DNA of 64,000 bases from Naegleria gruberi (GCA_000004985.1 GG738886.1); one strand, 5' to 3'; positions 6,001 through 63,924 are shown, numbered from the stretch's first letter. Notes: generated from the sequence alone by a model not told the origin. Numbers and translations are program-made.

Positions 6001-6829
6001 AGAGTTAAAGCTCTCAGAGCATCAAATTCAGAGAATTGACAAGATTTTACAAAAGACAATCATCTCCAAAATTGTGAGGTATACTGTTCCAAGAGGCTAT
6101 GAGCATAATACTAATATGAACAGAAACTCATTCTATAAGGAGGAAAGTTTGTTGAGAGTTAAAATGACTTCGTTATTTGATGTACATCCAGAAGATTTTG
6201 GTATCCCTAAGGTATATGTGAAAATTTGTAATAACAAGCTAGTGCAAGAGGAGCTAAAGAAACTAGATCCAATAGCCATAACGCCTCAAGAGAAAGTTCA
6301 AGTGATTTTGAATAGTTGTATGATTATTGTTGAATTGATGAAATCGACTGGTTCTAGTTATAATATCGATGACTTTTTAATTTTGCTTGTTTACAATATT
6401 ATCAAAGCTGGAATACCTAATTTATACAGTAATTTGATATTTATCAAGAGATTTTATGGAGTTTTTCTAGATCCACCCCAATCAAAACAACCTCTCTATG
6501 GAATTGGATCAGAGAATGAGTATTGGTTTAAACAATTTGAAACTGCTATTTTGTTTTTACTCGATTATTCCAATAATTCTAATGCACAACCATTACCAAC
6601 TCGAGAAGAAACTGAAAAGAAGCAAGAGCCGATTAAGGAAGAACCCCTATCACCAAAGAGAGTTACAAATAGTATTAGATCCACTGAAAGTGACCCAATA
6701 GTAACAATAGCGAAAAATGTTGGCAGATTTGAGAATATTGCATGTTCTGATTTGAAATTCTCAGACATTCCAGATCTGTTGAATGAGTACAAATTATTAT
6801 TGGGATATTTCAACAAACAAAAGAAGTAA
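3095..6829 (+). CDS. RasGAP-like + VPS9 domain protein (GAPVD1/RME-6-like), 3 exons
   Basis: Exons 3095..4264, 4316..4661 and 4710..6829 join three same-frame ORFs. Intron 1 is 4265..4315 (GTAGGT...CAG, 51 nt); intron 2 is 4662..4709 (GTATGT...CAG, 48 nt). Total 1211 codons plus stop. The C-terminus has a clear VPS9 motif (IDDFLILLVYNIIKAGIPNLYSNLIFIKRFYG...EYWFKQFETAILFL). A RasGAP-signature-like segment LLLKRFFFGWYLLPAASRPE carries the PAxxxPE core, with the FLR arginine replaced. The N-terminal exon is S/N-rich low complexity, so the start codon is uncertain. Confidence 0.5.
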
Positions 6830-43764: not shown

Positions 43765-45090
43765 TTAAGGTAAGAAAGTACCAGTTGCTTTTGTTGTTTG
43801 TGCCTTGATTGATTCCAAGATTGGTGTTAATTTGGCAGCCAATTTAGAAGGTTCCTTTCCATTTGCCTTTTTAGATTCTTCAACCAAAATAACCATATCG
43901 ACAGGAATGGAGATGATTGGTACCATACCTTTAATCATTAAACTGGTCAAACTCATAATACCTGTAGCACCATTTGTCAATCCACCACGACTATCCAATC
44001 CTTGGTGTCTATGACCAATAAGGGCATCAACAAATTGTACAACTCCAATAGTGTTTGAGCCAACAGAAATGGTACGAGTATCAATGTATGGATCAGTAAC
44101 TCTGTACTCGTAAATCTTTTTAATCATATCATTGACATATTGAGTATCCTTTGCCAAGAGTTCTTGAATTGCCTTTGCAGATTTCTTGGCATGTTTCCAT
44201 TCGACAACTGAGGCAACAACACTTGTGGTTGTACCAGCTCCAACACATCCAAGACCAGCTCCTGTAGCCAAAAGCGAACCTCCAAGTGTAAAAGGAGCTG
44301 CTACGATACCTCCCACAATCAATGAAGCACCAACAATGTTTGTGGCAGTACCACCAACTTTGGCCTTTGCTGTTTTCTTTTGTTTCTTATCCAATGCACA
44401 GATCATATCTTCAAGCATTTTAATGATTTCCATACGTTTCTTGAGCCATTCTCTGGCAGATTCTTCAACAGCAACCAATCTCATTGCTTGTATCATGTTG
44501 TTATTAATTGGTGGAGGAACAACAGTGGTTGTTTGTTGCACTACAGAAACAGGTGTCATTGGTGAGACAGTCTTTTCAACAGTTGTGGTTGTTTGTTGTA
44601 CAAATTGACCAGTTGGAGTCATTGGTTGGCCGAATTGAGATTGCATCATTTGAGGTTGTTGTTCCATGTATTGAGGATTCATACTTGGTTGTTGTGGATA
44701 GCCATGTTGCATCATTTGAGGTTGACCATATTGTGGAGGTTGTTGGTACATTCCTTGCTGTTGTGGATAACCTTGTTGGTATTGTTGATATTGTGGTTGT
44801 TGCATACCTGGTTGTTGAGGTTGTTGAGGTTGTTGTTGGTATTGTTGTGGTTGCATACCTTGTTGTTGTGGATAGCCTTGTTGTGATTGCATCATTTGAG
44901 GTTGACCATACTGGGATTGTTGCATACCTTGTTGTTGTGGATACATTCCTTGTTGAGGTTGTTGTGGATAACCTTGTTGAGGAGGGTATTGTTGATATTG
45001 TGGTTGTTGGACTCCAGGTTGACCATATTGTGGAGGTTGTTGCATACCTGGTTGAGGAGTTTGTGGAGAGTATTGTTGTGGTTGGTGCAT
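43765..45090 (-). CDS. ApoL-like membrane-insertion domain protein, paralog 2, with N-terminal prion-like Q/P/G/M/Y-rich repeat domain
   Basis: The first ATG is at 45090 ([10 protein letters not shown]...); the ORF-track start at 45252 is probably UTR. About 180 aa of imperfect PQQGYPQQ(G)MQQ repeats come first. The C-terminal 230 aa are colinear with the 40206..41210 protein ([68 protein letters not shown]...[21 protein letters not shown]...[39 protein letters not shown]). Confidence 0.55.
44560..45090 (-). repeat. imperfect tandem codon repeats encoding PQQGYPQQ(P/G)MQQ prion-like tract
   Basis: Repeated ccttgttg/ggttgttg nucleotide units on the plus strand. They generate several long spurious plus-strand ORFs (44186..45143) composed of V/L/W-rich reverse-frame translations. 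Confidence 0.6.
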
Positions 45091-45564
45091 TTTGTTTTGT
45101 GTTGAAAAATTATATGACTCAAGTCTGTTATTTAGCCTGTTGATTCGTATGAATTCTTTGGTCCGTTGTAACATTCGGAATGTCATTGTCCAATAAAAAT
45201 ACAATGAGAAAGTGACAGAAACAAGTTGCAAAATACAATTGTGGCAATTCAAATATGATTTGTGTGTTAATTGCCAAAAAGTCGAATTATTGTCTTACGA
45301 AAGGAAACATATGCATGTTACTTGGTTGATTTGATCAAGAAAATTGGCAATTCACATCCAAATGTGATTTGATAACTTGTTTGTGCATTCTAAAAGTATT
45401 CTGTTGTATCAACCAAGTTGCTGTTGTAAAGTCTAACTACAGTCAGAGTTGGTTTTAATTGAAGTTTTCCCATAATCCACGTACAGATTTCTTTTTAATT
45501 GCATATGGCACTTCCAAAGCTCCTCTCAATACTTTCAGAATATCAATTCCCATACTAACAAGTT

Positions 45565-47763: not shown

Positions 47764-48423
47764 TTTATTAGAATGTTGAAGTAAATGTATGTAATGGAAC
47801 GTACCTAAAGCATCGTGATATTGAATGTTTTTTTTCAAAATTACTTTTTAATTTTTCTTTTATTTTTCAAATTTTAAAGTTTAACGGTAAATATGGGAGG
47901 TGCTGAGATTATTTTTGTTGGTAAAACCAAACAACGTTGCAATTCTCTAAAACCGATTCAATCATCATCTTGCTATACAATCACAAAGAACTCAATTCAA
48001 GGTTTAATTCATCATTAATTAAATTGAAATACCAAATGCAAGTTTTGATAGGACTTCCATTCAATGATTTACTGTTTCGACTTGCTATAGTAATCCTATA
48101 TCCCATTAAGGAATTTGGACCCCTCGTTTATCTCTCTTAATCCCATTCGGAAAGCAATCACCAAAACAACCTGAGAAACTAAGCTTTTGATCCTTAAGGA
48201 AAGCCTCAATTTCAAAAAAATTGGTGTAAGAAGAGACAGGGAGAGAATGCGATTCTTTTTGAAAAATCCAAATACTGGATATTATGATAAGGGGGCATCT
48301 ATATGTTTGTCCTTATCGGCCTTATTAGCAAGGTTGTTATCCTTATCATCATTATCTTTATTTTCAACATCAGGATTAATATCCTTAAAAAGTTGTGGTG
48401 ATGAGGAATTTTCTTCTATTAAG

Positions 48424-51400
48424 ATGCTATCATCATCACCGTCATCATTAACAAGTTTAAATAATTCTAATGGGATAAGAACAAGATCAAAGTATCATTC
48501 TTCATCATCCCTTGTACTTTTATTCATCATTATTTCAATGATACTAGTTTCATGTTTCATGTGTGAACCAATTCAGGCCATCTCTTGTAGTGGAATAGAT
48601 TCCAACGACCTCACTGCTTGCTCTGGGATGGGGACTTGTATTCAGGATGAAACATGCCAATGCCTTAACGGATATTCAGGCGCTAATTGTGAGTATGTGG
48701 AGTGTTTTGGAGTTACAAATGAACCTGGTAATGAGGTTTGCTCTCGTCACGGGCAGTGTTCATCACCAGACAATTGTCAATGCGATTCTGGGTATTATGG
48801 CTCTACATGTTCCATCACAACTTGTTTTGAGAAGTGGAGTAACTTGTCGAATAGCAACAACATTTGCTCTGGGCATGGTACTTGTTCATCATTGGACGTT
48901 TGTGAATGTAATGCTGGATACTTTGGTAGCGAATGTGAAAAGGATCTTTTCGCTGGGTACAAACTAATTAGTATTAGCCCAGTAGTGATAGCAAAAAATT
49001 CACCTGACAATGTTGAATTGAAAGCAAGTATTGCCCTTCCTTCAATGGTTCTATCCTCTGCCTACTCACACGATGGTTCACAACCTTTACCATTTGTTGT
49101 TTCCAACTCTACAACTTCTATTGTTATTACAGATACGGTAAATGATGCTTTTGGTCAATTGTTAGTTCAGGAAGCAGATAGAAAAGCAGGTGAACTTTAC
49201 AATCTTCCATGTGATTTTAACATTTCCAATCCCGACCAAGAACTCAATAGTTTGACCATCATTAGAAATGGTGGAGTCTATTGTTTTCCAAATGGTGTAA
49301 CTATAAGAGGACACACATTTATTATTGTCGGTACAGAAACAGTCCTTTTCAAATCTCCTTTTGTATATTATTATGGAGCTTCCTTTTACTATCTGGAATG
49401 TGCCTCCTATAGGAACGTTTTCTGGTTAACCTATGACCAAGGAGATAATGGAAACTTCTTTTCTGGAGATATTCATGGAACTGTTATTGGAATTTCTCCT
49501 TATCATGGAATTCAACTTTACGATAACTTGGTGGGGGCTGTATGGTACACTGGTGGAACAGATATGATTCTATTCGATGTGAATATTTTACCACCAATAA
49601 CCTTCAATTCAAATGAAAGTTTTAGTCGAGATGATTGCATGGAAACAAGTTGTTATGGAATTTCATTCCGATTGAATAATACTTGCTTTGGAAGAGGTCA
49701 TTGTGTGAAGAATGATACTTGTTTGTGCAATACGGATTCATACGGAAGTAATTGTTTAATTTCAATTTGTAATGGTGTCTACGGAAATGAAACCAATGTA
49801 TGTAGTGGTCATGGTGAATGCCAAAGTAAGGACAGTTGTGAGTGCGAAAGTGGTTATTATGGAAATTGGTGTGAATTGACCACATGTTTTGGAGTCCAGA
49901 ATGACCAGCCGAATACTTGTAATGGGCATGGATTGTGTTCCAAATTGGATACTTGTGAATGTGCTTCTGGTTTTGGATATGGTGGTTCAAGTTGTGAAAT
50001 TCCAATCTGTAATGGAACTATGGCTAATGAAAGTAGTGTTTGTCTATCAAGAGGTCATTGTGTCCAACCAAATATGTGTAGTTGCCAATCAAGTTATTCA
50101 GGGTCAAACTGTGAAATTGCTAATTGTTTTGGAATTATTTCAAATGACAGCTCAGTTTGTTCTGGTCATGGGTCTTGTAATTCTGTAGATACTTGCACTT
50201 GTTCCATTGAATACTACGGAGCCGATTGCTCACAATTTGATTGTTATGGCATTCAATCAGTGAATAGTTCTGTTTGTTATGGAAGAGGACAATGTATTAA
50301 TGTTAATACTTGTTCATGTTCACAAGGATACTATGGCAATGAATGTGAAATCTCCATGTGTGATGGTATTTTGGGCAATTCCTCCCAAGTTTGTTCTAGT
50401 TATGGACAATGCAAGGATACGGATGTGTGTGATTGCCAATTGGGCTATTTTGGTGTGTTTTGTAATGAAACAACATGTAATAGTATAGCAATGAATGACT
50501 CAACAGTATGTAATGGACAGGGAACTTGTTGGCCATTGGACACATGTGTTTGCTCCAATGGATATGATGGCTCTAATTGTCAAAATCCTATTTGCTTTGG
50601 AATTGTTTCCACTAATACCTCTGTTTGTGGAGGTCATGGAGTTTGTTCGCAACCAAATATTTGTCAATGCAACCAGGGATATTACGGATCCCAATGTGAA
50701 ATAGTCACCTGTTCTGGTATCATGTCAAATGGATCAACAGTGTGTTCAGGACAAGGGCAGTGTTCTGATATGGACATATGCCAATGCAACAACCATTACT
50801 ATGGATCTAATTGTGAAAAGTTTGATTGCTTTGGTGTATCCTCTCTCTTAAACACCTCATGCTCTGGTCATGGTACATGTCTTGATTACAATACTTGCCA
50901 ATGTTACTCTGATTATTATGGAAATAATTGTGATGTTACCAAATGTTATGGTATTTTCAGTAATTCATCCAATGTTTGTTCATCTAAGGGAAGTTGCCAT
51001 GTACGAGATACTTGTATCTGTTCGAATAATTACCACGGTTCTTATTGTAACATAACAAGTTGTAATGGAGTTTATTCTAATGATGCTTCAGTTTGTTCCG
51101 GTCATGGTTCATGTATTGGGTACGACACTTGTCAATGTTTGAGCGATTATTCTGGAAGTAATTGTCAAGGAGAAATAGTTGACCCATTTGCTGGATTTAG
51201 AATTATTTCAGATTCTTCAGTTTCAATTTCTATTGATTATTTCCTGACAGATTGGCAACCAGTTTTGCAATCCTATACTCGTTACTATGCCTCAAGTTTA
51301 CTTCTTAAAAGTATTTCCTATTTGGATTCAAATATTCAATATCTTCCACATTCGAGTGCAGTTATTCTAAACAGCACAAGTGCACAGGGCATCAATATTG

Positions 51401-54400
51401 TCAACAAGATGAAAACCATCAAGTCCCAGTTATTGGCTTCATTAACCTGCACTAAAACTTACACAAACACTAACTCTCCAAATACTTTTATAATCAAACA
51501 TGGAGGTGTAATTTGTTTCACAGGAGGAATGACATTCGGGCCAGAAAGAACTATTATCATTGTGGGAACAGAGCCTGTCATATTCAAACTCCCATCCTTG
51601 CAGTATAGTGCTCTTAATATTGTTTTTTTGGAATGTGCCTCATATAGAAACTTTTTCTGGATTTTGGATTCAAATAGTTTTATTAAGGGAGCAGATAAAA
51701 CAAAGAATTATCAACCACCAATTCATGGAACATTTATTCAACTCTCTGGAACTATTTCTTTGAGAGGTTACCTTGCAGGTAGTGTATGTGCTTCGAACAT
51801 CAATACTCTTCTCCACGAAGTCACATTTTATGATCCAACCACTTTTGACCCTTTCCAAAGTGTCACTTCACAATGTAATTACACCCTCTGTTACAACATT
51901 CTATCAAATAATCAATCAGTGTGTTCAGGTAAAGGTAATTGTTCTGATTACAACACTTGTGTTTGTAATACGGATAGTTATGGATCTGATTGTTCTTTAT
52001 TTAAGTGTAACGGAATTTTGAGTTCAAACTCAACTTTTGTTTGTAATGGAAGAGGTAAATGTGTAGGGCCAGATGTCTGTTCCTGTAATCCAGGTTATTA
52101 TGGAGATTTTTGTGAGCTGACCACATGTAATGGAATTGAAAATACCTCGCCTCTTGTTTGTAATGGAAGAGGTGCCTGTAATCATTTCAATAGCTGTTCC
52201 TGTAGCTCTACATTTGGGTATGGTGGATCAGATTGCGATATTCCAATTTGCTATCAAAAACTTGCAACCAATCGTTTAGTTTGTAGCTCAAGAGGTGATT
52301 GCTTGGGACCAAATGTTTGTAATTGTACCGAAACTTATCTTGGTGATAATTGTCAACTGACCACTTGTGCTGATATACTTTCAAACTCTTCTCTTGTTTG
52401 TTCAGGCTTTGGATCATGTGTTGGCTATAACAATTGCACCTGTCATACAGGTTTCTATGGAGAAACTTGTGCAGAATATGATTGTTTCGGAGTTAATAAG
52501 AATAATCCAAATGTTTGCTCTTCAAAAGGCGAATGTATTACTGTTAATAACTGCACATGTCAAGATGGCTTTTTGGGTAATAATTGTTCCTACACTACTT
52601 GCTTTGGAGTAAGAAGTGATTCGCCTACAGTTTGTAATTCGAAAGGTTCCTGTAGAGCCAAAGATGTTTGTGAATGTTGGAATGGATATTTCGGAAGTAA
52701 TTGTACTCTGACAAGTTGTGGAGGGATCTATTCAAATGATAGCTCTGTGTGTAATGGACATGGTTCTTGTTGGCCAGCGGAAACCTGCACTTGTTTATCT
52801 CAATATGGATATACAGGTCAATTGTGTGAAATTCCAATTTGTTATACCATAGCAGCTAGTGATCCTTTAACCTGTTCTTCTCATGGCTCCTGTGTTGGTG
52901 TCAATACATGTGAGTGCCAAGCAAATTATACTGGATCCAAGTGTCAAGTTACATCATGTCAAGGAATTCTATCAAACGGCTCACTTGTTTGTTCTGGGCA
53001 TGGTTCATGTATTGAACATGATAATTGTACATGCCTAGCTGGTTACTTTGATACCGCCTGTAATCAATTCACATGTAATGGAACCAACTCCCAAGACAGC
53101 TCAGTTTGCTCTGGAAAAGGAAGTTGCGATTCATATAATAATTGTTCTTGTCAAGCGGGCTATTATGGACCTAATTGTGAAAAGACAATGTGTAATAACA
53201 TTTTGAGTGATAATCCATCTGTGTGTACATCTCGTGGTAATTGTATTGCCCCAGAAGTTTGCAGTTGTAATGAGACTTATTTTGGTACTAATTGTGAGTT
53301 GACTACTTGCAATGGAACTGTTTCAAATAGCAGCTCGGTATGTTCAGGATCAGGAGTTTGTTGGCCATTCGATACCTGCACTTGTTACTCTGACTTGGTC
53401 AGAGAATTCGAAGGTCAATGGTGTGAAAAACGTTTGTGGGATCCTTTCGCTGGATATCGAATGGTATCTCACAATGGTTTAGTTTACCATTTTGATGATA
53501 ACAACAATTTCTACACTCCTGATATTCATACCAATACTAGATATTATCGTTCAAGTATGATTTTAGATATACTTACAAAGATAACACCTACACTCAATTA
53601 CACATCTGATAATGGAGCTCACATTGATAGTGTTAATACTCCCAAAGCATCAGCCTTGGCTGCACTTATGAAAAAGAAAGGTAATTCCATGTGGACACTT
53701 CCATGTACTAAAACAGTTAACAATTCAAGTGATTTGCCATGGATTAGTAAGAGTGAAATTATGATTCGTCACGGAGGTGTTTTCTGTTTCAATATTGAAG
53801 CTTCTTTTCACAACAATATAACCATTATCATAGTTGGAGCTGAACCTGTTGTTATGAAAGTTCCTTCAATTCAATACTCTGCAGTCAACTTTGTATTTGC
53901 AGAATGTGCTTCTTATAGAAATTTGTTTTGGTTTATCACAAGTTATAATCCAAGTTTCATTCAAGGAGGAAATAGAGGGACTGGATATGAGCCTCCAATT
54001 TATGGAACTTTCTTCCCAACCTCAGGTGGTTCCTTCCAACTTGCTGGTCCTTTTGCAGGAAGTGTTTGGGTAACCGGTAATGCATGGACTGTTTTTATTG
54101 ATGTTACTGTTTATCCACCATTGTCAACTGATCCATATGAACCAACAGTTGGTCAATTTTGTAATTATACTCAATGTTTCAATGTTAAATCTAATTTGAA
54201 TACTACATGTTCCGGTAGAGGTCAGTGCATTGATTATAATACATGTGTTTGCAATGCCGATGCTTATGGAGTTGATTGTTCAATCTCCAAGTGTAATGGC
54301 ACATTTAGTAATGTATCAACTGTTTGTAATGGACATGGTTCATGTATCGCTAAAGATACTTGCCAATGTAATACAGGATACTATGGAGAATGGTGTCAAT

Positions 54401-57400
54401 ATACAACATGTGGAGGAATTGAAAGCACTTCACCATTGACTTGTAGAGAAAGAGGTACTTGTATTGCCTATAATCAATGTTCTTGTAATGTCACCAAAGG
54501 ATACAATGGTAATGACTGTGAAATTCCTTATTGTAACAACATTTTGGGAAACACTTCAACTGTTTGCAGTGCTCATGGTTCTTGTGAATTGCCAAACACG
54601 TGCAATTGTTCAGCAAACTATTTTGGAACATTTTGCCAATATACCACTTGTGCAGGCATTGAAACATATAATTCATCAGTTTGTATTGGTAGAGGTCAAT
54701 GTACACTTTACAATAATTGTACTTGTAACTCACCTTATTATGGATCCAATTGTGAACAATTCAAGTGTTTTGGAGTGAATAACAACTCTAGTACTGTTTG
54801 TTCTGGAAGAGGTATCTGTACAGATTATAACACCTGTGTTTGTAATGCTGGATATTTAGGATCGAATTGTGAAATTTCATCCTGTTTTGGAATTTTAAGT
54901 AATGTGTCCCTTGTTTGTAAAGCTCATGGAGTTTGTGTAGCTACGAATACTTGTGTCTGTGCTGCTAATTACATGTCCAGTGATTGTTCTGTGACTTCCT
55001 GTTCAGGAATCAATTCAACTTGGTCTTCAGTATGTCATGGAAGAGGTTCATGTTGGCCTTACAATACATGTAATTGTAATGCCAAATTGGGTTACACTGG
55101 AAATGATTGTAATGAGCCAATGTGTGACGGTCTTACAAACTCTGATCCTTATGTTTGTAGCGGAAGAGGAGGTACTTGTGTTTCTCCTAATCTATGTGTC
55201 TGTAACGATCCATCAAAATATTTTGGTAAATTGTGTGAATACACCTATTGTCGAGGTGTTCCAACCAATCTTACTGACACAGCACTCTTCTGTTCTGGAA
55301 ATGGTATTTGTACAGACTATAATTACTGTTATTGTTTTAGTGGATATACAGGAACTGAGTGTGAGTTGGATATGTTTGCAGGTTACAGATTCGTCACCAA
55401 TAAGAATGTTTATGTTTTGAAGAATCAGATTTATTACTTGCCTGCCAATATCGCCATAGGCCCAATGTTGAGTGCTGCTGGGCAGAAGACATACCTTCCT
55501 TACCAACAAGCAGTGAAAACCAATTTGAGAGTTGATGCTACATTGTTGAATGAGCTCCAAATGAGAGCTATGGGTTTAAGGTATAATTTCTTCCCTTGTG
55601 AACATTATATCAAGGACGCTTCAGTATTTGGAAAGAACATAGAATTGAGGGGAGGTGTGTACTGCATTCAGAATCCATGGACAATTGATGGACATAACTT
55701 TACCGTAATTGGTAAAAAACGAACCATTTTTACACTTCCACAGCTGATATATAAATCAGCAAAGTTCACCTACTATGAATGTGCATCTTATAGAGATGTA
55801 ATATTTTATGCCGGTGAAACTACTGGCTACAGCAATTTCACAGGACCTATCGATGCAACCATTTTTGTAAATTCACCAGGTGCAGCAGATTACTACGTGA
55901 ACGGTGATATTAATGGAGCAATCTATATATTTGGAAAACTTGGATCTAACGATGCTCCACCTACTGGTACTGTCTACACTACAGATATGAAATTTATTGC
56001 ACCATACACATTTGATCCAGCTGTTAGATACATTGAATCCAAGTGTAATTATTTCACATGTTTTGGAATTGGCTCTAATATCAATACTACTTGTTCTGGA
56101 AAAGGAAAATGCATAGGCATTGATACTTGCTCATGTATTTCTGGGGCGTATGGGCCTGATTGTTCTCTCAGAATGTGTAATGGAACTTTAGGAAACTTTT
56201 CCAATGTTTGCAGTGGTCATGGTTCATGTATTTCCACTGATATTTGTCAATGTAATGCAGGATTTTATGGGCAATGGTGCCAATACACAAAGTGTTATGG
56301 ATTAGAAAATACTTCTCCAACTGTTTGTTCAGGAAGAGGTTCTTGCTTGTCTGAAAATAATTGTATTTGTAATTCTACTTATGGATACGAAGGTTCACAA
56401 TGTGAAACTCCAATTTGTGGTGGACAATTGGGTATTTGTGCTAGTTCAAGCAGAGGAAATTGTACAGCTCCTGACACTTGCTCATGTTTGGATCATTATA
56501 GTGGTCAATTTTGCCAATGGACTACTTGTAATAGCGTACCTTCTAATTCATCAAGTGTTTGTTCTGGAAGAGGAATATGTGCTGCATATAATACTTGTCA
56601 ATGTAAAGCAGGATATATTGGATCGATCTGTGAAAAGGATGTCTTTGCTGGATACAAATTAATTAGTAACAAGGCAGTTCTTTTAGCAAAGAATTCAAGA
56701 GCTAGCTCTGTGCTGGCAGCAAGTATTGCCCTTCCTTCAATGACAATTAGACCACCAACATTTTTAAATCCAGATAAGGTCTATCCATATGTTGCAAGTG
56801 GTAAGTCTGTAATTACAAAGCCAACCGATTCCTACTATCAAACTTTAATGACCGAATTATCAAAGAAATTCGATGAGCTCATGTCCGCTCCTTGTGACTA
56901 TGTAATTTCAAAACCAGATACTGAAATGGGTCAGAAAATTCTCATTGAGCATGGTGGCGTCTATTGTTTCCAGAATGGTTGGAACATTAATGGTCAAAAG
57001 TTTACAATTGTTGGAACTGAGCCAGTTATTTTCAAAGCTCCATATATCAAGTATTCTGGAGCTAACTTTGTATATTTGAAGTGTGCTTCATATAGAAACG
57101 TGTTTTGGGTCACTCAATACTACAACTTGACTGGCAGAGTAAATTGGGTTAACAGTAATTCATTTTCTGGAACAGTTCATGGCACAATAGTTGCTAGATA
57201 TGGGTATGATTATTTAGTTTCCGATGATATACAAGGAGCTATTTGGTTTTATACTCAAGAAGATGGATATATCACTTTGAAAGATGCTAAACTTACAACA
57301 CCTCCAACATTTGATCCTTACATGCCATATGTTACTGGATCTTGTGATACTTATACTTGTTTTGGTATTGATCCAACTTCGAATATGAGTTGCTCAGGTA

Positions 57401-60400
57401 GAGGTGTCTGTAAAGATTACAATACATGTACATGTCAAGATGATTCCTATGGTATTGATTGTTCCATTTCTAAATGTTATGGAATTTTTGGAAATGTGTC
57501 AATTGTTTGTTCCTCTCATGGTAATTGTACATCAAAGGATACATGTACATGTAGTGAAGGATACTTTGGAGACTTGTGTCAATACACTTCATGTGCTGGC
57601 ATTCCAAATAACTCTACAAATGTCTGTAACCAGAGAGGTGTTTGTAATATTTACAATTCTTGCACTTGTAACACAACTTTGGGTTATGATGGATCGAATT
57701 GTCATGTTCCAATATGTAATCATCTAGTAGGAACATGTACAGATCTATTCAGAGGTAACTGTACTGCTCCTAATGCATGTTCATGTGAAAATCATTATTA
57801 TGGGCCTTGGTGTGAAAAGACAACTTGTGGTGGATTTGAGTCAACTAATACACAATCTGTTTGTAATGGAAGGGGTAATTGTACAGCTTATGAAAAGTGT
57901 ACCTGTTTACATGGATATGCAGGAGCATTTTGTGAAGAGTATAGTTGTTTTGGAGTTGTGAGAACTCTTCCGTCAACTTGCTCTGGAAGAGGAGCTTGTT
58001 CTTCAATTGACCAATGTGATTGTAGCGCAAATTATTATGGATCTAATTGTGAAATTAGCAAGTGTAATGGTAAATTTGGAAATGAGTCTACAGTGTGTAG
58101 TTCTAATGGTCAGTGTATTGAGACAAATATTTGTAATTGTTCAGAGCATTATTATGGAAATTGGTGCGAAAAGACGACTTGTTTTGGAGTTGCTTCCAAT
58201 GAGTCAAATGTTTGTTCACATAGAGGACAATGTAAAGCATTCAATACTTGCCAATGCAATCAAAATTACTTTGGAGATAATTGCGAGTTGACTACTTGTA
58301 ATAATCTTGCTTCAAACTCTGGTTTGGCTTGCAATTTGGTTGGCAATTGTACAGATTACAATACATGTGTTTGTCCTTATGGATATACTGGTTCATGGTG
58401 TGAACAGACTACTTGCTTTGGTGTAGCCACAAGTTCTCCAAGTGTTTGTAATGGACATGGTAATTGTACAACTATGGATATGTGTAGTTGTGATCCTAAA
58501 TATGGTTATGGTGGAAGTAATTGTAACATTACAACATGTGATGGAGAATTGTCTACCTCTTCTCAGGTCTGTAACTCACATGGTACATGTATTGGACCAA
58601 ATCAATGTCAATGTGCTCCACATTATATTGGTGACAATTGTCAAGTGACAACTTGTTTTGGAATTCTGTACAATGACTCTAGTGTTTGCTCAGGAAAGGG
58701 TTCTTGTGATGGATTCGATAACTGTACATGTGAACTTGGTTATTCTGGAGCAGAATGCGACCAGTACACATGCAGTGGAGTTTTCAATTCAAATCCCTTA
58801 GTTTGTTTCGGTAGAGGAAACTGTACTGAATATGATATCTGTGTTTGTGAAGCAAATGCCTTTGATTTTGATTGTTCTGGTGTTTCTTGTAATGGATTTA
58901 TCAATGCAGATCCAATGGCTTGTTCTTCACATGGTTCATGTACCCAAAATCAATAGTGTAATTGCTCTGAAAATTATCATGGTGAATGGTGTGAGCTCAC
59001 AACTTGTAATGGAATTGATTCGAATAGTACTGAAGCATGTTCTGGAAGAGGAAGATGTGTAGATTATAATAGTTGTGTCTGTTCGAATGGATACTATGGG
59101 GATGACTGTCAGGATTACAATTGTTATGGTATTTCACATTTTTCAAATTTGACATGTTCCGGATATGGTAATTGTTCCGATATCGACACATGTGAATGTT
59201 TTGAAGATTCTATTGGTTTAGATTGTTCCGTCAACGTTTGCAATGGTCTTCCTATGAATTCCTCATTAGTTTGTTCAGGACTAGGCAGTTGCACTCGACC
59301 AAATTATTGCAATTGTTCAGATAACTATTTTGGAAGTAATTGTGAATGGACCACATGTTATTCCATCGCATCATTCTCTCCATCCACATGTTCTGGAAGA
59401 GGAAATTGCTCTGATTTTGATAAGTGTATATGTAATTCTGATACATTTGGTTCCGATTGCTCTCTCTTCAAATGCAACCACACCCTTGGCAATGAAACTC
59501 AAGTTTGTAGTGGACGAGGTTCATGTATTGGCACTGATGAGTGCAATTGCACTGAGAATTATCACGGAGAGTTTTGTGAATTTACTGAATGTTTCTCTCA
59601 ACTTTCTAATGAAAGTTCAGTTTGCTCTGGAAAAGGAAAATGCATTGAGTTCAATAATTGTTCATGCCAAGATGGATATTTCGATCAAGATTGTTCTCAA
59701 TTCCAATGTAATGATACCTTCAGCAATGAAACCACAGTTTGCTCCTCAAGAGGTTTTTGCATTGATTCGAACAAGTGCAATTGCTCAGAAAATTACTTTG
59801 GACTGAATTGTGAATTGAGCATTTGCTTTACAATTCTTTCTAATGACAGCAGAGTTTGTTCTAGAAGAGGAATTTGTGTTGATTATCAAAACTGCTCATG
59901 TTATGATGGATTTTATGGTGAAAGTTGTGAGTTTGCTGTAAGTGCAGTGAACAATCAATCAAATTCCACTCAATTGAATAATCAAACTATTGATTCCAGT
60001 AATGTAACCATGAATAATAATTCATCGGTGGTTTTTAACAATACTGATAACAGTACAAATACTGATAATAGTAGTGTTGTGGTCACTAATCACACAATTT
60101 CAGAAGACAATACAACACGTTCTAATTCAAATGGAACTGTTTATAATAACAATAGTACAGACCTTTCTAATGAAACAATTTCAAATAATGGAACAGTTTC
60201 TGCTAACGCAAATGTTACTATCCCTGACAATTCTACTTCTTCCACTAATCAAACTGTTTCTCCAAGTACTGATTCATCAAATGGAACTGTTTCCAATAAT
60301 ACTGTAAATGCAACAGCTTCTGATAATACTACCACTGATAATTCCAACATTACAATTTCGGATAATACCACTTCACCTGGATCCAATAATCAAACTATTT

Positions 60401-63400
60401 CTCCAAGTGTTGATTCATCAAATGGAACGATTTCAAATAACACTAATCCTTCGGTAGTTTCGAACAGCTCAACTGTTTCAAACTCTTCTTTTACTAACGG
60501 AACAGTTTCCAACAGCACAGTCACTTCAAATAGTAGCACAATTACTTATAATACCACAATTTCATCAAACGAAACAATTTCGGTTAATGTAACAAGCAAC
60601 ACATCAAAAATTACAAATTCAACCTCAATCTTGAACGAAACTGTTCCTGTAATGCCTGAGCCTGATGTTGTGGTTGCTTTGCCGGTTGCAATTATAAAAC
60701 GAATGAGCTCGAACGTGTTCAGCTCATGCGATGATATTAGAGTGGATGGCTCGCAAAGTTTCTCACAAGATTCGACCTATCTTGACTATTATTGGAATTT
60801 ATTGGAAGCAAGCTCTTTGACTAGTTTACAAAGTTTGCCTAATAGTCCAATCATTGTCATTGACTCTACATTGAAGCCAGGACAATATGTTGTTTCACTA
60901 AAAGTTGGAAATGGAAGAAATAGTTCAGTGAACTATTCGAAACCTTTCACCAAGTCAGCAAATCCACTTCCAAAGATTTATATTGCTAATTCTTTGATTG
61001 AAAAGTATGGAAATCAATTCCCAGTAACCATCAAGAAAGTTATCACAGAATCAACTTGCCAAAAGGAAAAATCAGTAATTAGTTGGAGTCAATTAAGTGG
61101 ACCAACAGTTAAATACTCAATTGACAGTTTCAGTAATCTTGCTATTGCCTCATTGACTACCTATGGTTTCCATACTTACATCTTCCAAGTTTCAGCTCAT
61201 TACCCTTCAAATCCATTAGAAAGAGTTTCTGCCAATGTAACACTTGTTACAAAATCTCCTGAATTGCAACTTGAATTATTGACAACTGATGCAAATTCTA
61301 ATTACACAACTATTGTAATTGGATACACAGATCCAGAGAGTGCTTATAATACTCTTTCTGAGGAATGGAAATGGACTTGTTTGAATAATACGAATCCAAG
61401 TTTAATTTCCTTCTTGGAATTGATTTCTAAAAACAAGCAAACTGAAGTTAGATTTGATGGTTCATCACTATTTCGTCAAAACATACCTCGCTCTATTGAA
61501 CTATCTTTAAGAATTTCCAAGTCTGATAGAACAATCTCCAAGTCAATTATAGTTTACTTTGGATTGGTTCCACCTATTGTAAATATTATTTCAGTAGAAC
61601 CAAGCACTTTGTACGTTCTTCCTGGAGAACCTCTCAGTATTCAGACATTAGTCACCAAAGGAAATGTTAATGTTACATTGAATGGACAAGTTGTTGAAGT
61701 ATCCGATCAACAGCCAACCTTGGATGTTGACACTAAACTATTAGAACAAGGTTCTGAAAATACAATTACAATCACATCGACTGATCCAGTGACTGGAATG
61801 TCTAGCTCTTCAAGCTATACTTTCAAAGTTGCTACCTATCCGAAACCATGTGCTTGTTTCATTTCTCCTTTAAGTGGAATTGCATTAGAAAGCGATTTTG
61901 AATTCTATTGTACGAATTGTAAAAATTCAGAAAATAATATTGACTATCGATATGGATTTATAGATGACAGATCCGAAACAAGAATTCTATTATTCGATTC
62001 TGGTGAAATTTATGCTTCCAAGTTGCCATCTCCATTTTCTGGAAATACTGTCAAATGTTTCTTTGATATTGTCGATACAGAGACAGGTGCTTTTACAACA
62101 GTTTACAAAAATGTCACTATAGAAAAACCTCTCGTTACAAAAGTCGAACAAGTTCAAGGACTAGTCGAATCATGGACTATTGTGGGATCCAACTATTTCA
62201 GTAATGGAGATTTCAGTAAGAGTATTTATCAATGTGCTTCAACTTCAAGAACTGATTCAGTTTTATTGAGACAGATATTAGGAAATGAATATTTAGAAAG
62301 ATCAGAAAGTATTGAATGTGAGAATGGTGTTGATATTTCAGGAGTGTGTAAATGTCATGATGGATATATTGGTAAACATTGTGATAAGGCGATTAGTGAC
62401 TTTTCTAATATTCAAGGTACTAAATTGCAAGTACTCAGAGAAATGGTGACCATTGCCAATAGCACTGGTGAAATGAATAATCAATATTTGTCATTGCTGT
62501 CATTTGCCATTGATTCGATACTTGTCAATTATCAATATTTAGATACAAATACTATATCTGAATCAATGTATACTTTGAATATGTTTTTGGAATATTCCTT
62601 ATCTGATGAAAGTTTGAGATTACCAACCGGGGTTGATAAGTTATTAGAATCTAGTCAATATTCAACATTTAATTACATTACTGATAAGCAATACCTTACT
62701 GATCAAACGTCAAATGCCTTAAAATTATTGAAATCTCTCAAATTGTCATCTCAGTTACAAGCAAGATCTGTTTCCATGTCAAATGCCAAGAGAAACATTA
62801 AGGGATCATTCTTTAGTATAGTTTTGGGTAAGAGCTTGTTAGCTGATCATCAAAATAATATTCAAGATCCCCATTCATCTTCGTCCATAAGTATGGAGAA
62901 TGGTTTCTTTGCTTATACTGCAAGATCTAAAGTTTCATCTATCAAAAAGCCATATATTTACATCCTGTCTGTGACTGATGACATTTACTCATTGGGAACT
63001 AAACTCAAAGTTGTGGAAAAGAATAACAATGTTCAAAAGGTTTCAAATTTGGTTTCTCCAATAGTTTCTGTAGATTTTGTGGATGTTGCCACTACCATGA
63101 ATCCAACAAAAATAATTTATTCGATTCCAATTAATTTGAATGGATCAACATTTGAATTGAGAAGAGGAACTTTTGATTTATCAGTCAAGACACTGGACCA
63201 GTATTGTAAAAACTTTGATGAAGGTTCTATTAAAGTTCTTTCAGACTGTACCTTAATTTCATTGACTGCAACACATGCCAAATGTCAATGCTCCAAATTT
63301 ACAAATGTATTTGTTATTGAAACAACGACCATTTCAACTTATTCCTACACCTACTTGGCAGCTATTGGTTTCTCTCTTGTAGCTGTCTGTTCCATTGGAA

Positions 63401-63924
63401 CCTTGGTAATTCTCTCAGTTTGCGTATGGTGGAAATTCAAGAAACCTAAACTTTCCAAAAAGAGAAGTCTTGTCTTTACGGATGCCTCTGAAAATGAGAT
63501 TCAACTCAGAATTCAAGAAATTATTCTCGGAGACCATACATACAGTAATTCAGAAACTAACTCTGATGATTCATTGATTATTGATGTGATAGATGATTGT
63601 CCATCAGGAGGAAGCAGTGGAACAGGTTCAAATAATGGAAGAATGAGAAGTTATTCAATGCAAGAAAGACCAACCACAATGATGAGTTCATCCTCTCCAA
63701 GAGGTGGAGTTGGTGCCAATATACTTTCATCTTCACCAAGAGGAACAAGAAATCGTTCATCTTCAGTTGCTCCATTGATTATTCAGGAAAGCCATGAATT
63801 GGATTCGAATGCATCAAGTTCTGATGAATTATTAAAGAATCATTCAGAGGGAGGTGTTAAACGATCTGGAAGTGGTATTTGGGATTTGAGAGAAGATGGC
63901 TTTCTAGAACATGAAAAATTTTAA
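48424..63924 (+). CDS. giant type I membrane protein: signal peptide, ~150 tenascin-type EGF repeats, five ice-binding-like (DUF3494-like) modules, N-glycan-rich stalk, GPS-like motif, single TM; one in-frame TAG at 58954..58956
   Basis: ORFs 48187..58956 and 59149..63924 are in the same frame (59149-48187 is divisible by 3). The 64 codons between them are open and continue the EGF pattern (CNCSENYHGEWCELTTCNG...). The first ATG, at 48424, precedes a hydrophobic signal-like segment (LVLLFIIISMILVSCFMC). The EGF units follow C.G.G.C.....C.C..GY.G..C. The TM helix YLAAIGFSLVAVCSIGTLVILSVCVWW lies at ~63352..63435 and is followed by a basic/S-rich tail. Confidence 0.6.
48940..49640 (+). repeat. 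ice-binding-like (DUF3494-like) module 1 of 5 within the giant gene
   Basis: KDLFAGYKLISISPVVIAKNS...GGVYCFPNGVTIRGHTFIIVGTETVLFKSP...YLECASYRNVFWLTYDQGDNGNFFSGDIHGTVIGIS... This is colinear with fungal/bacterial IBP beta-helix motifs (FAVLAgs; GvYk.....tGtltLdgqgdpnavFIFq; aqAkNVFWqvG; F.GtIla.T.it). Confidence 0.45.
51169..51880 (+). repeat. ice-binding-like module 2
   Basis: DPFAGFRIIS...HGGVICFTGGMTFGPERTIIIVGTEPVIFKLPSLQYSALNIVFLECASYRNFFWIL...IHGTFIQLSGTISLRGYLAGSV. Confidence 0.45.
53425..54160 (+). repeat. ice-binding-like module 3
   Basis: DPFAGYRMVS...HGGVFCFNIEASFHNNITIIIVGAEPVVMKVPSIQYSAVNFVFAECASYRNLFWFIT...IYGTFFPTSGGSFQLAGPFAGSVWVTG. Confidence 0.45.
55362..56040 (+). repeat. 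ice-binding-like module 4 (most diverged)
   Basis: DMFAGYRFVT...RGGVYCIQNPWTIDGHNFTVIGKKRTIFTLPQLIYKSAKFTYYECASYRDVIFYAG...IDATIFVNSPGAADYYVNGDINGAIYIFG. Confidence 0.4.
56633..57345 (+). repeat. ice-binding-like module 5 (closest to module 1)
   Basis: DVFAGYKLISNKAVLLAKNS...HGGVYCFQNGWNINGQKFTIVGTEPVIFKAPYIKYSGANFVYLKCASYRNVFWVTQ...VHGTIVARYGYDYLVSDDIQGAIWFYT. Confidence 0.45.
59935..60650 (+). repeat. S/T/N-rich stalk with ~45 N-x-S/T sequons and internal ~35-aa repeats (mucin-like, heavily N-glycosylated)
   Basis: NQSNSTQLNNQTIDSSNVTMNNNSS...STNQTVSPSTDSSNGTVSNNTVNATASDNTTTDNSNITISDNTTSPGSNNQTISPSVDSSNGTISNNTNP... This sits between the last EGF array and the membrane-proximal domain. Confidence 0.5.

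What the first reader, a model, noticed from the sequence alone, without database searches (positions are those of the whole stretch)
48940..57345. Five tandem ice-binding-like (DUF3494-type beta-helix) modules embedded between EGF arrays of a eukaryotic membrane protein
Each ~240-aa module starts at D(P/L/V)FAG(Y/F)(K/R). It contains GGV(Y/F)CF...(F)TI(V/I)GTEPV(I/V)(F/M)K, then (L/A)ECASYRN(V/L/F)FW, then a G-T-(I/V/F) strand segment. These align with the order of conserved motifs in microbial and fungal ice-binding/antifreeze proteins (FAVLAGS...GVYK..TGTLTLDGQGDPNAVFIFQ...AQAKNVFWQVG...FKGNILA). The modules are old paralogs (30-45% identity to each other), alternating with blocks of 8-20 EGF units. 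A DUF3494-like beta-helix as a recurring spacer in a giant EGF adhesin would be an unusual architecture. It hints at a carbohydrate-, surface- or ice-binding function rather than antifreeze as such.
Basis: partly seen in the sequence, partly recalled or inferred. Interest (0 to 1): 0.7.

Follow-up and report, generated by a model that had tools for sequence, protein, structure and literature searches.

The report
Ice-binding-fold modules in Naegleria EGF receptor
A giant cell-surface protein of the soil amoeba Naegleria gruberi carries five very divergent copies of the beta-helix domain known from microbial ice-binding (antifreeze) proteins, set between long EGF arrays; standard domain annotation misses them, and the architecture is unusual for this domain because the organism is not ice-associated.

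Summary
Five paralogous modules of about 226-241 aa (26-45% pairwise identity) lie at nt 48943, 51181, 53440, 55369 and 56638. They sit in one gene of about 5,167 codons (48421-63924, +), which is Naegleria gruberi NAEGRDRAFT_51207, annotated "predicted protein".

Pfam does not detect Ice_binding (PF11999) in any of the five modules. Three other lines of evidence do support it.
- A profile of the modules, searched against 1.8 billion proteins, finds only Naegleria paralogues plus two genuine PF11999 proteins.
- hhalign of 12 family modules against five crystallised ice-binding proteins gives 94% probability (E 1e-7). Against N. gruberi's own PF11999 domain it gives 99% (E 7e-19).

The protein is a type I membrane protein with about 66 EGF units, a mucin-like stalk, a REJ domain and one transmembrane helix.

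Inferred, not shown: the modules are disulfide-stabilised rigid beta-solenoid nodes used for surface or ligand adhesion rather than antifreeze. They probably derive from one DUF3494 acquisition in the N. gruberi lineage.

This is a new variant of a known kind, of moderate interest.

The parts
48421..63924 (+). Whole gene of about 5,167 codons. It is Naegleria gruberi NAEGRDRAFT_51207 (XP_002674088.1 / D2VPE3_NAEGR). The public model is 4,968 aa: it starts at an internal Met (nt 48628) and removes nt 58567-58956 as an 'intron'.
   Evidence: Searches show a continuous frame. Searches show an exact match of 3,313 aa of prefix and 1,655 aa of suffix to P0001. The start at 48421 is inferred from the hydrophobic signal and from the similar N-terminus of the metagenome homologue P0002.
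48499..48564 (+). N-terminal hydrophobic segment (SSSSLVLLFIIISMILVSCFMC), a signal peptide or signal anchor.
   Evidence: It is missing from the public gene model.
48565..48942 (+). N-terminal EGF block, about 3 units.
   Evidence: EGF_2 / EGF_TEN; cysteine count.
48943..49638 (+). Module 1, IBP-1-fold (divergent DUF3494) domain, 232 aa.
49639..51180 (+). EGF block, about 13 units.
51181..51876 (+). Module 2, IBP-1-fold domain, 232 aa.
51877..53439 (+). EGF block, about 13 units.
53440..54162 (+). Module 3, IBP-1-fold domain, 241 aa.
54163..55368 (+). EGF block, about 10 units.
55369..56046 (+). Module 4, IBP-1-fold domain, 226 aa. It is the most divergent of the five.
56047..56637 (+). EGF block, about 5 units.
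56638..57345 (+). Module 5, IBP-1-fold domain, 236 aa.
57346..59934 (+). EGF block, about 22 units. It contains the in-frame TAG.
58954..58956 (+). In-frame TAG occupying an ordinary residue position inside an EGF unit (SCTQNQ*CNCSENYHGEWC).
   Evidence: The public model's 'intron' 58567-58956 (GT..AG, 390 nt, open frame encoding EGF units) ends on this TAG. Splicing it out would leave an EGF unit with 4 cysteines.
59935..60624 (+). Ser/Thr/Asn-rich stalk, mucin-like and dense in N-glycosylation sequons (230 aa, 65% S+T+N).
60508..62220 (+). REJ domain (PF02010).
   Evidence: (E 9.2e-14, 51.3 bits against a cut-off of 25).
63352..63432 (+). Single transmembrane helix (YLAAIGFSLVAVCSIGTLVILSVCVWW). 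It is followed by a basic stop-transfer sequence and a 163-aa cytoplasmic tail.

Best explanation
**Shown.**
- The five modules are highly divergent members of the DUF3494 / IBP-1 fold. This fold is a beta-solenoid packed against one long alpha helix, known from microbial ice-binding proteins.
- They are embedded in the ectodomain of a giant Naegleria gruberi type I membrane protein. Its order is: signal, about 66 teneurin/tenascin-type EGF units interrupted by the five modules, a mucin-like stalk, a REJ domain, one transmembrane helix, and a cytoplasmic tail.
- The modules arose by intragenic duplication of a 'module + EGFs' cassette.
- They belong to a family confined, in the collections searched, to N. 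gruberi and one Naegleria-like metagenome contig. Three further EGF-REJ paralogues carry 1-3 modules each. A true PF11999 domain is fused to a PhoPQ-related protein in N. gruberi.

**Inferred.**
- Each module is held by two internal disulfides: LPC with VYCF, and ECAS with the last Cys before the next EGF.
- Each module acts as a rigid, flat-faced binding or spacing node along the flexible EGF rod.
- The whole protein is an adhesion or recognition receptor for substratum, prey-cell surface or extracellular polymers. It is not a soluble antifreeze.
- The domain entered the N. gruberi lineage once, probably from a prokaryote, and was then shuffled into EGF-REJ genes.
For: **Homology.**
- the only non-family hits among 1.84 billion proteins are genuine PF11999 proteins.
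- hhalign 94.2%, E 1.1e-7, against crystallised ice-binding proteins.
- the top 6 PDB sequence hits are all ice-binding proteins.
- a paralogue's module scores 28.7 bits, equal to the PF11999 cut-off.
- 99.1%, E 6.8e-19, against the N. gruberi PF11999 domain.

**Topology and architecture.**

**Cassette duplication.**

**Single clade.**: neighbour-joining bootstrap 98% for the 12 EGF-protein modules, and 100% when the NAEGRDRAFT_49989 domain is included.

**Lineage restriction.**
- One search returned only N. gruberi and one metagenome contig.
- One search shows that N. fowleri and N. lovaniensis proteins are in the same collection, and that their PhoPQ-related orthologues lack the ice-binding domain.
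- Searches found no relative carrying the motif in 185,579 prokaryotic species genomes or in the JGI metagenomes.

**Constraint.** Module 1 against the metagenome homologue gives pN 0.36 and pS 0.71.

**Disulfide inference.** Read from alignment A2.
- The first Cys pair is lost together in NAEGRDRAFT_76139 module a, and is displaced together in all three NAEGRDRAFT_75960 modules.
- The ECAS Cys and the terminal Cys are both kept in 75960 module c, which has no EGF after it.

**Background.** DUF3494 proteins occur in many bacteria from ice-free habitats, where binding to other surfaces has been proposed (Raymond 2024, PMC11645318).
Against: - There is no functional evidence at all: no expression, localisation or binding data.
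- None of the five modules is recognised by Pfam PF11999, so family membership rests on profile and structure evidence.
- The structures are predictions from shallow alignments of 5 and 12 sequences. I could not inspect coordinates. Handedness, the flat face, cysteine distances and surface composition are therefore unverified.
- The gene contains an in-frame TAG (58954-58956), so this allele might be a pseudogene or might produce a truncated, unanchored product.
- Lineage restriction depends on which eukaryotic proteomes are in the libraries, and on gene models for giant repetitive genes.
- The tree has only 9 outgroup sequences.
Confidence: 0.6

Rival explanations
1. The modules really bind ice. 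The protein would be an ice adhesin or a freeze-tolerance surface protein of a soil and freshwater amoeba, analogous to bacterial ice adhesins that present a DUF3494 domain on a long stalk.
For: - The same fold and homology as proven ice-binding proteins.
- Multi-domain surface presentation resembles Shewanella SfIBP_1 (6bg8), which is among the best sequence and structure hits.
- According to Raymond 2024, eukaryotic DUF3494 proteins described so far all come from icy habitats.
Against: - From my own knowledge, not tested here: N. gruberi is a mesophilic bacterivore and is not known as ice-associated.
- The modules are so divergent that Pfam misses them.
- The positions conserved across the family are core hydrophobic, aromatic and Cys residues rather than a recognisable Thr/Ser/Ala ladder. 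The surface could not be inspected.
- No paper in the held library links Naegleria to ice-binding proteins.
Confidence: 0.1
2. The modules are purely architectural. They would be rigid beta-solenoid spacers or kinks that set the length and geometry of the EGF rod, with no ligand of their own.
For: - They are regularly interspersed with EGF blocks and were duplicated together with them as cassettes.
- The conserved residues are mainly core and disulfide positions.
- Sequence divergence between modules is high (26-45% identity), as expected if only the fold is constrained.
Against: - EGF arrays already serve as rods, so there is no obvious need for a 230-aa solenoid spacer.
- The same domain also occurs at the C-terminus of an unrelated PhoPQ-related protein in the same species. 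That position looks more like a binding or anchoring module.
- Homologues elsewhere are binding domains.
Confidence: 0.2
3. The resemblance is convergent or an artefact. The modules would be a different beta-helix family (for example pectate-lyase-like enzymes or generic adhesin solenoids), or AlphaFold imposed the fold.
For: - There is no Pfam hit on any window module.
- The five-module profile alone found nothing in PDB sequences.
- Sequence identity to ice-binding proteins in structural alignments is only 10-16%.
Against: - Independent sequence-only evidence reaches significance.
- The models were built without templates and from Naegleria sequences only.
Confidence: 0.04

Closest known systems
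DUF3494 / Pfam PF11999 'Ice_binding' (IBP-1 fold) single-domain secreted ice-binding proteins of fungi, algae and bacteria (e.g. 7bwx AnpIBP, 3wp9 ColAFP, 6eio EfcIBP, 3uyu LeIBP, 3vn3 TisAFP)
   Same: - Same order of motifs: N-terminal strand, helix, G-V-Y, and the NVFW strand.
- Extracellular.
   Different: - Below the Pfam threshold, with 10-16% identity.
- Two family-specific cysteine pairs.
- Five copies inside a protein of about 5,167 aa anchored in the membrane.
- The host is a mesophilic heterolobosean amoeba, not an ice-associated organism.
- Ice binding is untested.
Shewanella frigidimarina SfIBP_1 (6bg8), and the prokaryotic multi-DUF3494 + Ig-like surface protein P0007 (GCA_025450795.1)
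   Same: - DUF3494 used as a module of a long, repetitive cell-surface protein.
- P0007 has four DUF3494 copies alternating with Ig-like domains. It shares the Cys...VYC pair seen in the Naegleria modules.
- 6bg8 is the best PDB sequence hit.
   Different: - Prokaryotic, with Ig-like rather than EGF spacers.
- The domains are canonical and easily recognised by Pfam.
- No REJ domain and no eukaryotic-type transmembrane anchor.
NAEGRDRAFT_49989 (P0008/P0009): PhoPQ-related (PF10142) + C-terminal PF11999 domain of N. gruberi
   Same: - Closest relative of the modules outside the EGF-REJ family: hhalign 99.1%, E 6.8e-19, and 100% bootstrap as one clade.
- Shares the first cysteine pair.
   Different: - Passes the Pfam threshold (44 bits).
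- Single copy, fused to a hydrolase-like domain.
- Lacks the ECAS cysteine.
- The N. fowleri and N. lovaniensis orthologues lack the domain.
Polycystin-1 / sea-urchin REJ / PKDREJ-type receptors, and teneurin/tenascin EGF arrays
   Same: - A REJ domain next to the membrane (PF02010, E 9e-14).
- Long arrays of teneurin-type EGF units (PF25024, PF23106, PF07974).
- A large glycosylated ectodomain.
   Different: - No GPS motif, PLAT domain or multi-pass channel-like C-terminus was found; there is a single transmembrane helix.
- No described member carries IBP-1-fold domains. No paper in the held library contains both 'DUF3494' and 'EGF'.
Non-canonical DUF3494 proteins (Raymond 2024, PMC11645318)
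   Same: These are DUF3494-derived beta-solenoids so divergent that Pfam does not recognise them. They were found through predicted structures.
   Different: - Those are bacterial only, mostly from icy habitats.
- They differ by extra coils, and one was shown to bind ice.
- The Naegleria modules have roughly canonical length and are eukaryotic.

Membership tests
DUF3494 / Pfam PF11999 Ice_binding | Match to the PF11999 HMM at or above its gathering score (28.7 bits) | tested here: not met
   None of the five window modules gives any PF11999 hit, even at E<=10. Among the paralogues' modules, one (NAEGRDRAFT_71188) scores exactly 28.7 bits (E 1.2e-6). Three others score 13.9-23.1 bits.
DUF3494 / Pfam PF11999 Ice_binding | Statistically supported sequence homology to bona fide members (profile level) | tested here: met
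   - Profile of the 5 modules against 1.84 billion proteins: hits to P0007 (4 x PF11999) at E 4.8e-6 and to P0008 (PF11999) at E 1.4e-5, within their PF11999 regions.
- 12-module profile against PDB sequences: six ice-binding proteins at the top, best E 3.8e-5.
- hhalign: 94.2%, E 1.1e-7, against 5 crystallised ice-binding proteins; 99.1%, E 6.8e-19, against the N. gruberi PF11999 domain.
IBP-1 fold | Beta-solenoid of short strands with one long alpha helix packed alongside, superposable on solved ice-binding proteins | tested here: met
   - This rests on prediction only.
Ice-binding proteins (functional class) | Ice-binding activity, and a flat ice-binding face with regularly spaced small or hydroxyl residues | not testable with these tools
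The conserved columns are mostly hydrophobic, aromatic, Gly and Cys.
Ice-binding proteins (functional class) | Extracellular or secreted location | tested here: inconclusive
   The sequence predicts an N-terminal hydrophobic signal, a single C-terminal transmembrane helix, 151 N-glycosylation sequons and disulfide-rich EGF units around the modules. This is consistent with an ectodomain, but it is a prediction only.
Teneurin/tenascin-type EGF arrays | Pfam EGF_2 / EGF_TEN / EGF_Teneurin above threshold, with repeated six-cysteine units | tested here: met
   EGF_2 E 3e-150, EGF_TEN E 3.5e-147, EGF_Teneurin E 6.9e-107. About 66 six-cysteine units were counted.
Polycystin-1 / REJ receptor family | REJ domain (PF02010) | tested here: met
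   E 9.2e-14, 51.3 bits against a cut-off of 25, covering profile positions 28-445 of 452.
Polycystin-1 / REJ receptor family | GPS/GAIN cleavage motif, PLAT domain and a multi-pass (11-TM) C-terminal part | tested here: not met
   A Pfam scan of the C-terminal 1,207 aa at E<=1 gives a significant hit only to REJ, plus weak (E 0.012-0.07) single-stretch matches to EGF-type families and ATP19. Only one hydrophobic transmembrane stretch lies before a 163-aa tail.
Pectate-lyase-like / polysaccharide-lyase and tailspike beta-helices | Closest structural similarity to these right-handed parallel beta-helix enzymes | tested here: not met
   [not shown]

The most novel reading that the evidence does not exclude
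A DUF3494 domain was acquired once by the Naegleria gruberi lineage and then made into a eukaryotic-style domain, with added disulfides and sequence drift beyond Pfam recognition. It was multiplied to at least 11 copies by exon-free cassette duplication inside giant EGF-REJ receptors. In those receptors it serves as a non-ice adhesion or recognition module, for bacterial prey, extracellular polymers or mineral substratum. This would be the first eukaryotic, mesophilic, membrane-anchored and multi-copy use of the ice-binding fold. It would support the view that ice binding is one specialisation of a general surface-binding solenoid.
Probability: 0.35. Interest if true: 0.65.

Novelty: new variant of a known kind. 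Interest (0 to 1): 0.5.

Why it matters
DUF3494 is the most widespread ice-binding protein fold. Its role in the many organisms that never meet ice is an open question. According to Raymond 2024 (PMC11645318), the eukaryotic examples described so far are small secreted proteins from ice-associated algae and fungi, thought to come from bacteria by horizontal transfer.

This case differs in three ways. The fold occurs in a mesophilic amoeboflagellate. It is embedded five times in a membrane receptor with animal-like EGF and REJ domains. It is also so divergent that domain databases annotate the protein only as EGF repeats.

That has three consequences.
- It gives a tractable eukaryotic system (N. 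gruberi is culturable) for asking what the fold binds when it does not bind ice.
- It shows domain shuffling between a probably prokaryote-derived module and EGF-REJ adhesion architecture.
- It flags a blind spot in Pfam-based surveys of ice-binding proteins.

It does not in itself overturn anything. The fold and the idea of non-ice functions are already known.

Tried and rejected
- **The search for homologous proteins.** With the five-module alignment and with the NAEGRDRAFT_49989 C-terminal domain it returned nothing, not even the query's own database entries. I treated the word-index search as uninformative for these queries. Only the third search, with whole P0008, worked.
- **Five-module profile against PDB sequences.** No hits at E<=10. 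Significance appeared only after adding the paralogues' modules.
- **P0006.** This hit of the exhaustive search (24 stretches) is a translated tandem repeat whose unit contains 'YECASWRNELW'. I rejected it as spurious.
- **Thioester-domain (TED) hit on module 5.** E 0.24, 12 bits. Rejected as noise.
- **Motif-based scans.** Scans for [ENK]CAS[YP][RNY][NDS][VIL][FY]W in prokaryotic genomes and JGI metagenomes found no confirmed relative. These scans only see relatives that keep this motif.
- **afdb50 fold search.** Not available, so I could not list other eukaryotes with similar predicted domains.
- **dN/dS against the metagenome homologue.** Synonymous sites are saturated (pS 0.71-0.79). Only the qualitative result pN << pS is usable.
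- **Organism.** I first guessed a dictyostelid from the GC content and the EGF architecture. The exact database match to Naegleria gruberi rejected that.
- **Literature searches.** Naegleria + ice-binding, DUF3494 + EGF, DUF3494 + amoeba, and N. gruberi + EGF/REJ found nothing describing this family.

Full report
**1. What is in the sequence**

The region lies in one very long reading frame on the + strand. An ORF runs from 48187 to 58956 (3,589 codons). After a single TAG, the same frame continues to 63924.

The pattern D.FAG[YF][KR] occurs exactly five times in the 48187-58956 reading frame, at nt 48943, 51181, 53440, 55369 and 56638. Each occurrence is followed about 150 residues later by [EK]CASYR. 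The five segments are 226-241 aa long and end at 49638, 51876, 54162, 56046 and 57345.

They align over their whole length, with 22 invariant columns. Pairwise identity is 26-45%. The least similar pair still gives BLASTP E = 2e-13. So the observation and its coordinates are confirmed.

Two corrections apply.
Modules 2, 4 and 5 depart from them.
- The EGF blocks hold about 3, 13, 13, 10, 5 and 22 six-cysteine units, not '8-20'.

The four EGF units after each module are positionally conserved (46-57% identity). The duplicated unit was therefore a module-plus-EGF cassette.

**2. Whose gene it is**

The translation matches P0001 exactly. P0001 is Naegleria gruberi NAEGRDRAFT_51207 (XP_002674088.1, D2VPE3_NAEGR), annotated 'predicted protein'.

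The public model is 4,968 aa. It differs from the window in two ways.
- It starts at an internal Met (nt 48628). This drops the N-terminal hydrophobic signal at 48499-48564.
- It removes nt 58567-58956 as a GT..AG 'intron'.

That 'intron' is 390 nt long, keeps the frame open and encodes regular EGF units. It ends on the in-frame TAG. Splicing it out would leave a four-cysteine EGF unit. It therefore looks like a gene-caller's way around a stop codon.

The full protein, read from the Met at 48421, has the following order:
- signal;
- 3 EGF, M1, 13 EGF, M2, 13 EGF, M3, 10 EGF, M4, 5 EGF, M5, 22 EGF;
- a 230-aa stalk that is 65% Ser/Thr/Asn;
- a REJ domain (PF02010, E 9e-14);
- one transmembrane helix (63352-63432);
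- a 163-aa cytoplasmic tail.

So 'eukaryotic membrane protein with EGF arrays' is correct.

**3. Is the module an ice-binding-like (DUF3494) domain?**

*Pfam.* The direct test is negative. hmmscan of each module finds no PF11999 hit, even at E<=10. The whole protein shows only EGF families.

*Profile search of the large library.* An exhaustive HMMER search with the five-module profile against 1.84 billion representative proteins gave only eight hits.
- The gene itself.
- A 50%-identical homologue on a metagenome contig (P0002).
- Three N. gruberi EGF-REJ paralogues: NAEGRDRAFT_76139, 71188 and 75960, with 2, 1 and 3 modules.
- One spurious tandem-repeat translation (P0006).
- Two proteins that Pfam recognises as genuine Ice_binding.

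The two genuine Ice_binding proteins are these. P0007 has 4 x PF11999 (E 2.6e-118) plus bacterial Ig-like domains. P0008, which is NAEGRDRAFT_49989, has a PhoPQ-related domain plus PF11999 (E 2.4e-11). In both, the matched stretches fall inside the PF11999 regions.

*Family profile of 12 modules (A2).*
- Its six best PDB sequence hits are all ice-binding proteins: 6bg8 at 3.8e-5, 6a8k at 4.2e-5, 7bwx at 7.6e-4, and so on. Unrelated proteins begin at E 0.3.
- hhalign against an alignment of five crystallised ice-binding protein domains gives 94.2% probability, E 1.1e-7, over 146 columns.
- hhalign against the NAEGRDRAFT_49989 domain gives 99.1%, E 6.8e-19, over 174 columns. This span includes the N-terminal strand, the helix and the first cysteine pair.

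*Paralogue modules scanned singly.* The NAEGRDRAFT_71188 module reaches exactly the PF11999 gathering score (28.7 bits, profile positions 6-204 of 208). Three others score 14-23 bits. Homology is thus supported by sequence alone, through intermediates.

*Structure.* The models were template-free and used only Naegleria sequences.
- Module 1 (5-sequence alignment): pLDDT 71, pTM 0.73.
- Module 5 (12-sequence alignment): pLDDT 82, pTM 0.82.
- Both show many short strands and one 18-19-residue helix.
- The next hit is ComZ at about 9, and generic beta-helix lyases, adhesins and tailspikes score no more than about 8.
- Foldseek against PDB returns 31 ice-binding protein chains at E 9e-8 to 1e-4. 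The next hit is at E 0.29.

The rival 'different beta-helix family, or convergence' is largely excluded.

**4. What distinguishes the modules**

They are a divergent, cysteine-bearing subfamily. Alignment A2 shows two covarying cysteine pairs.
- The 'LPC' and 'VYCF' cysteines are both absent in NAEGRDRAFT_76139 module a. Both are displaced in all three 75960 modules.
- The 'ECAS' cysteine and the last cysteine of the module are both kept in 75960 module c, which is not followed by an EGF unit.

I infer two intramodule disulfides. This could not be checked in 3D. The first pair is also present in the NAEGRDRAFT_49989 domain and in P0007.

**5. Evolution**

*Tree.* I built a neighbour-joining tree of the 12 modules, the 49989 domain, the four P0007 domains and five PDB ice-binding proteins.
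- The EGF-protein modules form one clade (98% of 200 bootstraps).
- Together with the 49989 domain they form one clade (100%).
- Within the gene, M1 (with its metagenome orthologue), M5 and M4 group together, and M2 groups with M3.
- The outgroup sampling is small, so this shows common origin inside Naegleria, not a donor.

*Lineage restriction.*
- N. fowleri and N. lovaniensis proteins are in the same collection. Their orthologues of 49989 are 461 and 496 aa, with the PhoPQ-related domain only.
- Neither species gave a hit to the module profile.
- Motif scans of 185,579 prokaryotic species genomes and of the JGI metagenomes found no confirmed relative.

The simplest reading is a single gain in the N. 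gruberi lineage followed by domain shuffling and cassette duplication. This is an inference.

*Constraint.* Module 1 against the metagenome homologue gives pN 0.36 against pS 0.71. Synonymous sites are saturated, so this is qualitative evidence of constraint only.

**6. How it probably works**

Shown:
- the fold and the homology;
- a predicted position in the ectodomain;
- the modular cassette structure.

Inferred:
- The modules are rigid, disulfide-braced solenoids. They present flat faces along an EGF rod that is anchored through a mucin-like stalk and a REJ domain.
- The protein is an adhesion or recognition receptor.
- A non-ice ligand is more likely than ice. From my own knowledge, the organism is a mesophilic bacterivore. 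The domain has drifted far from the ice-binding consensus. DUF3494 proteins are common in bacteria from ice-free habitats, where binding to other surfaces has been proposed (Raymond 2024, PMC11645318).

True ice binding (about 0.1) and a purely architectural role (about 0.2) remain open.

**7. Comparison with what is known**

The closest functional analogues are bacterial surface proteins that display DUF3494 on repetitive stalks. These are SfIBP_1 (6bg8), the two-domain IBPv (5uyt) and P0007.

The closest relative is N. gruberi's own PF11999 domain in NAEGRDRAFT_49989.

The C-terminal half resembles REJ-family receptors. However, Pfam finds no GPS motif, PLAT domain or multi-pass region.

Raymond 2024 states that eukaryotic DUF3494 proteins found so far all come from icy habitats, and that his non-canonical, Pfam-invisible DUF3494 proteins are bacterial only. 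No paper in the held library links Naegleria, amoebae or EGF proteins to DUF3494.

**8. Verdict**

This is a real feature with a correct interpretation. It is a new variant of a known kind: a Pfam-invisible, disulfide-bearing DUF3494 subfamily in a novel eukaryotic membrane-receptor architecture.

Interest is moderate (0.5). The fold assignment is solid and somewhat surprising for the host and the architecture. Function is unknown, and the finding does not by itself settle an open question.

Noticed in passing
window 58954-58956 (and 58567-58956): There is an in-frame TAG at an ordinary residue position of an EGF unit. The frame and the EGF periodicity continue unbroken for another 1,655 codons. 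The public gene model hides the TAG inside a 390-nt, frame-preserving, EGF-coding GT..AG 'intron'. It could be a sequencing error, a nonsense allele (pseudogene) or readthrough.
   Followed up: partly
window 48421-48627: The public model NAEGRDRAFT_51207 starts at an internal Met (48628) and so lacks the N-terminal hydrophobic signal (48499-48564). The metagenome homologue P0002 has the same arrangement of a polar leader followed by a hydrophobic segment, which supports the longer N-terminus.
   Followed up: partly
window 43768-45252 (-): The 495-aa ORF immediately upstream, on the opposite strand, hits Pfam ApoL (apolipoprotein L, PF05461). E is 1.1e-9 and the score is 38.6 bits against a cut-off of 25.9. 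To my knowledge this is mainly an animal family, so it is unexpected in a heterolobosean.
   Followed up: no
P0008/P0009 (NAEGRDRAFT_49989), not in the window: N. gruberi has a PhoPQ-related (PF10142) protein with a C-terminal genuine PF11999 ice-binding-like domain. The N. fowleri and N. lovaniensis orthologues, and all 118 other listed homologues, lack that domain. The fusion therefore looks specific to N. gruberi.
   Followed up: partly
P0003 (NAEGRDRAFT_76139) residues ~364-556: Its second module stops about two-thirds of the way through and joins directly to the middle of an EGF unit (…GTISRGSCIGPNICNC…). This is probably another gene-model splice artefact in this repetitive family.
   Followed up: no
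L002 (GCA_025450795.1 contig JANRHI010029201.1) 2461-7653 and 10684-11001: The prokaryote-type protein P0007 alternates four PF11999 domains with bacterial Ig-like domains. A second small PF11999 gene lies 3 kb downstream, among ferritin-like genes. P0007 shares the Cys...VYC pair with the Naegleria modules. Its organism was not identified.
   Followed up: no
P0006 (1,403 aa, library hit): This is a translated tandem repeat of about 53 aa whose unit contains 'YECASWRNELW'. It mimics the module's ECASYRNVFW motif and accumulates a misleading E-value of 6.5e-9 over 24 weak stretches.
   Followed up: yes
window 4775-6826 (+) and 19702-21900 (-): These are ordinary neighbouring genes: a VPS9-domain protein (E 5e-20) and a protein containing an AhpC/TSA domain (E 1.3e-7). 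Several other long ORFs (for example 22009-26679, 1,557 aa) have no Pfam match.
   Followed up: no
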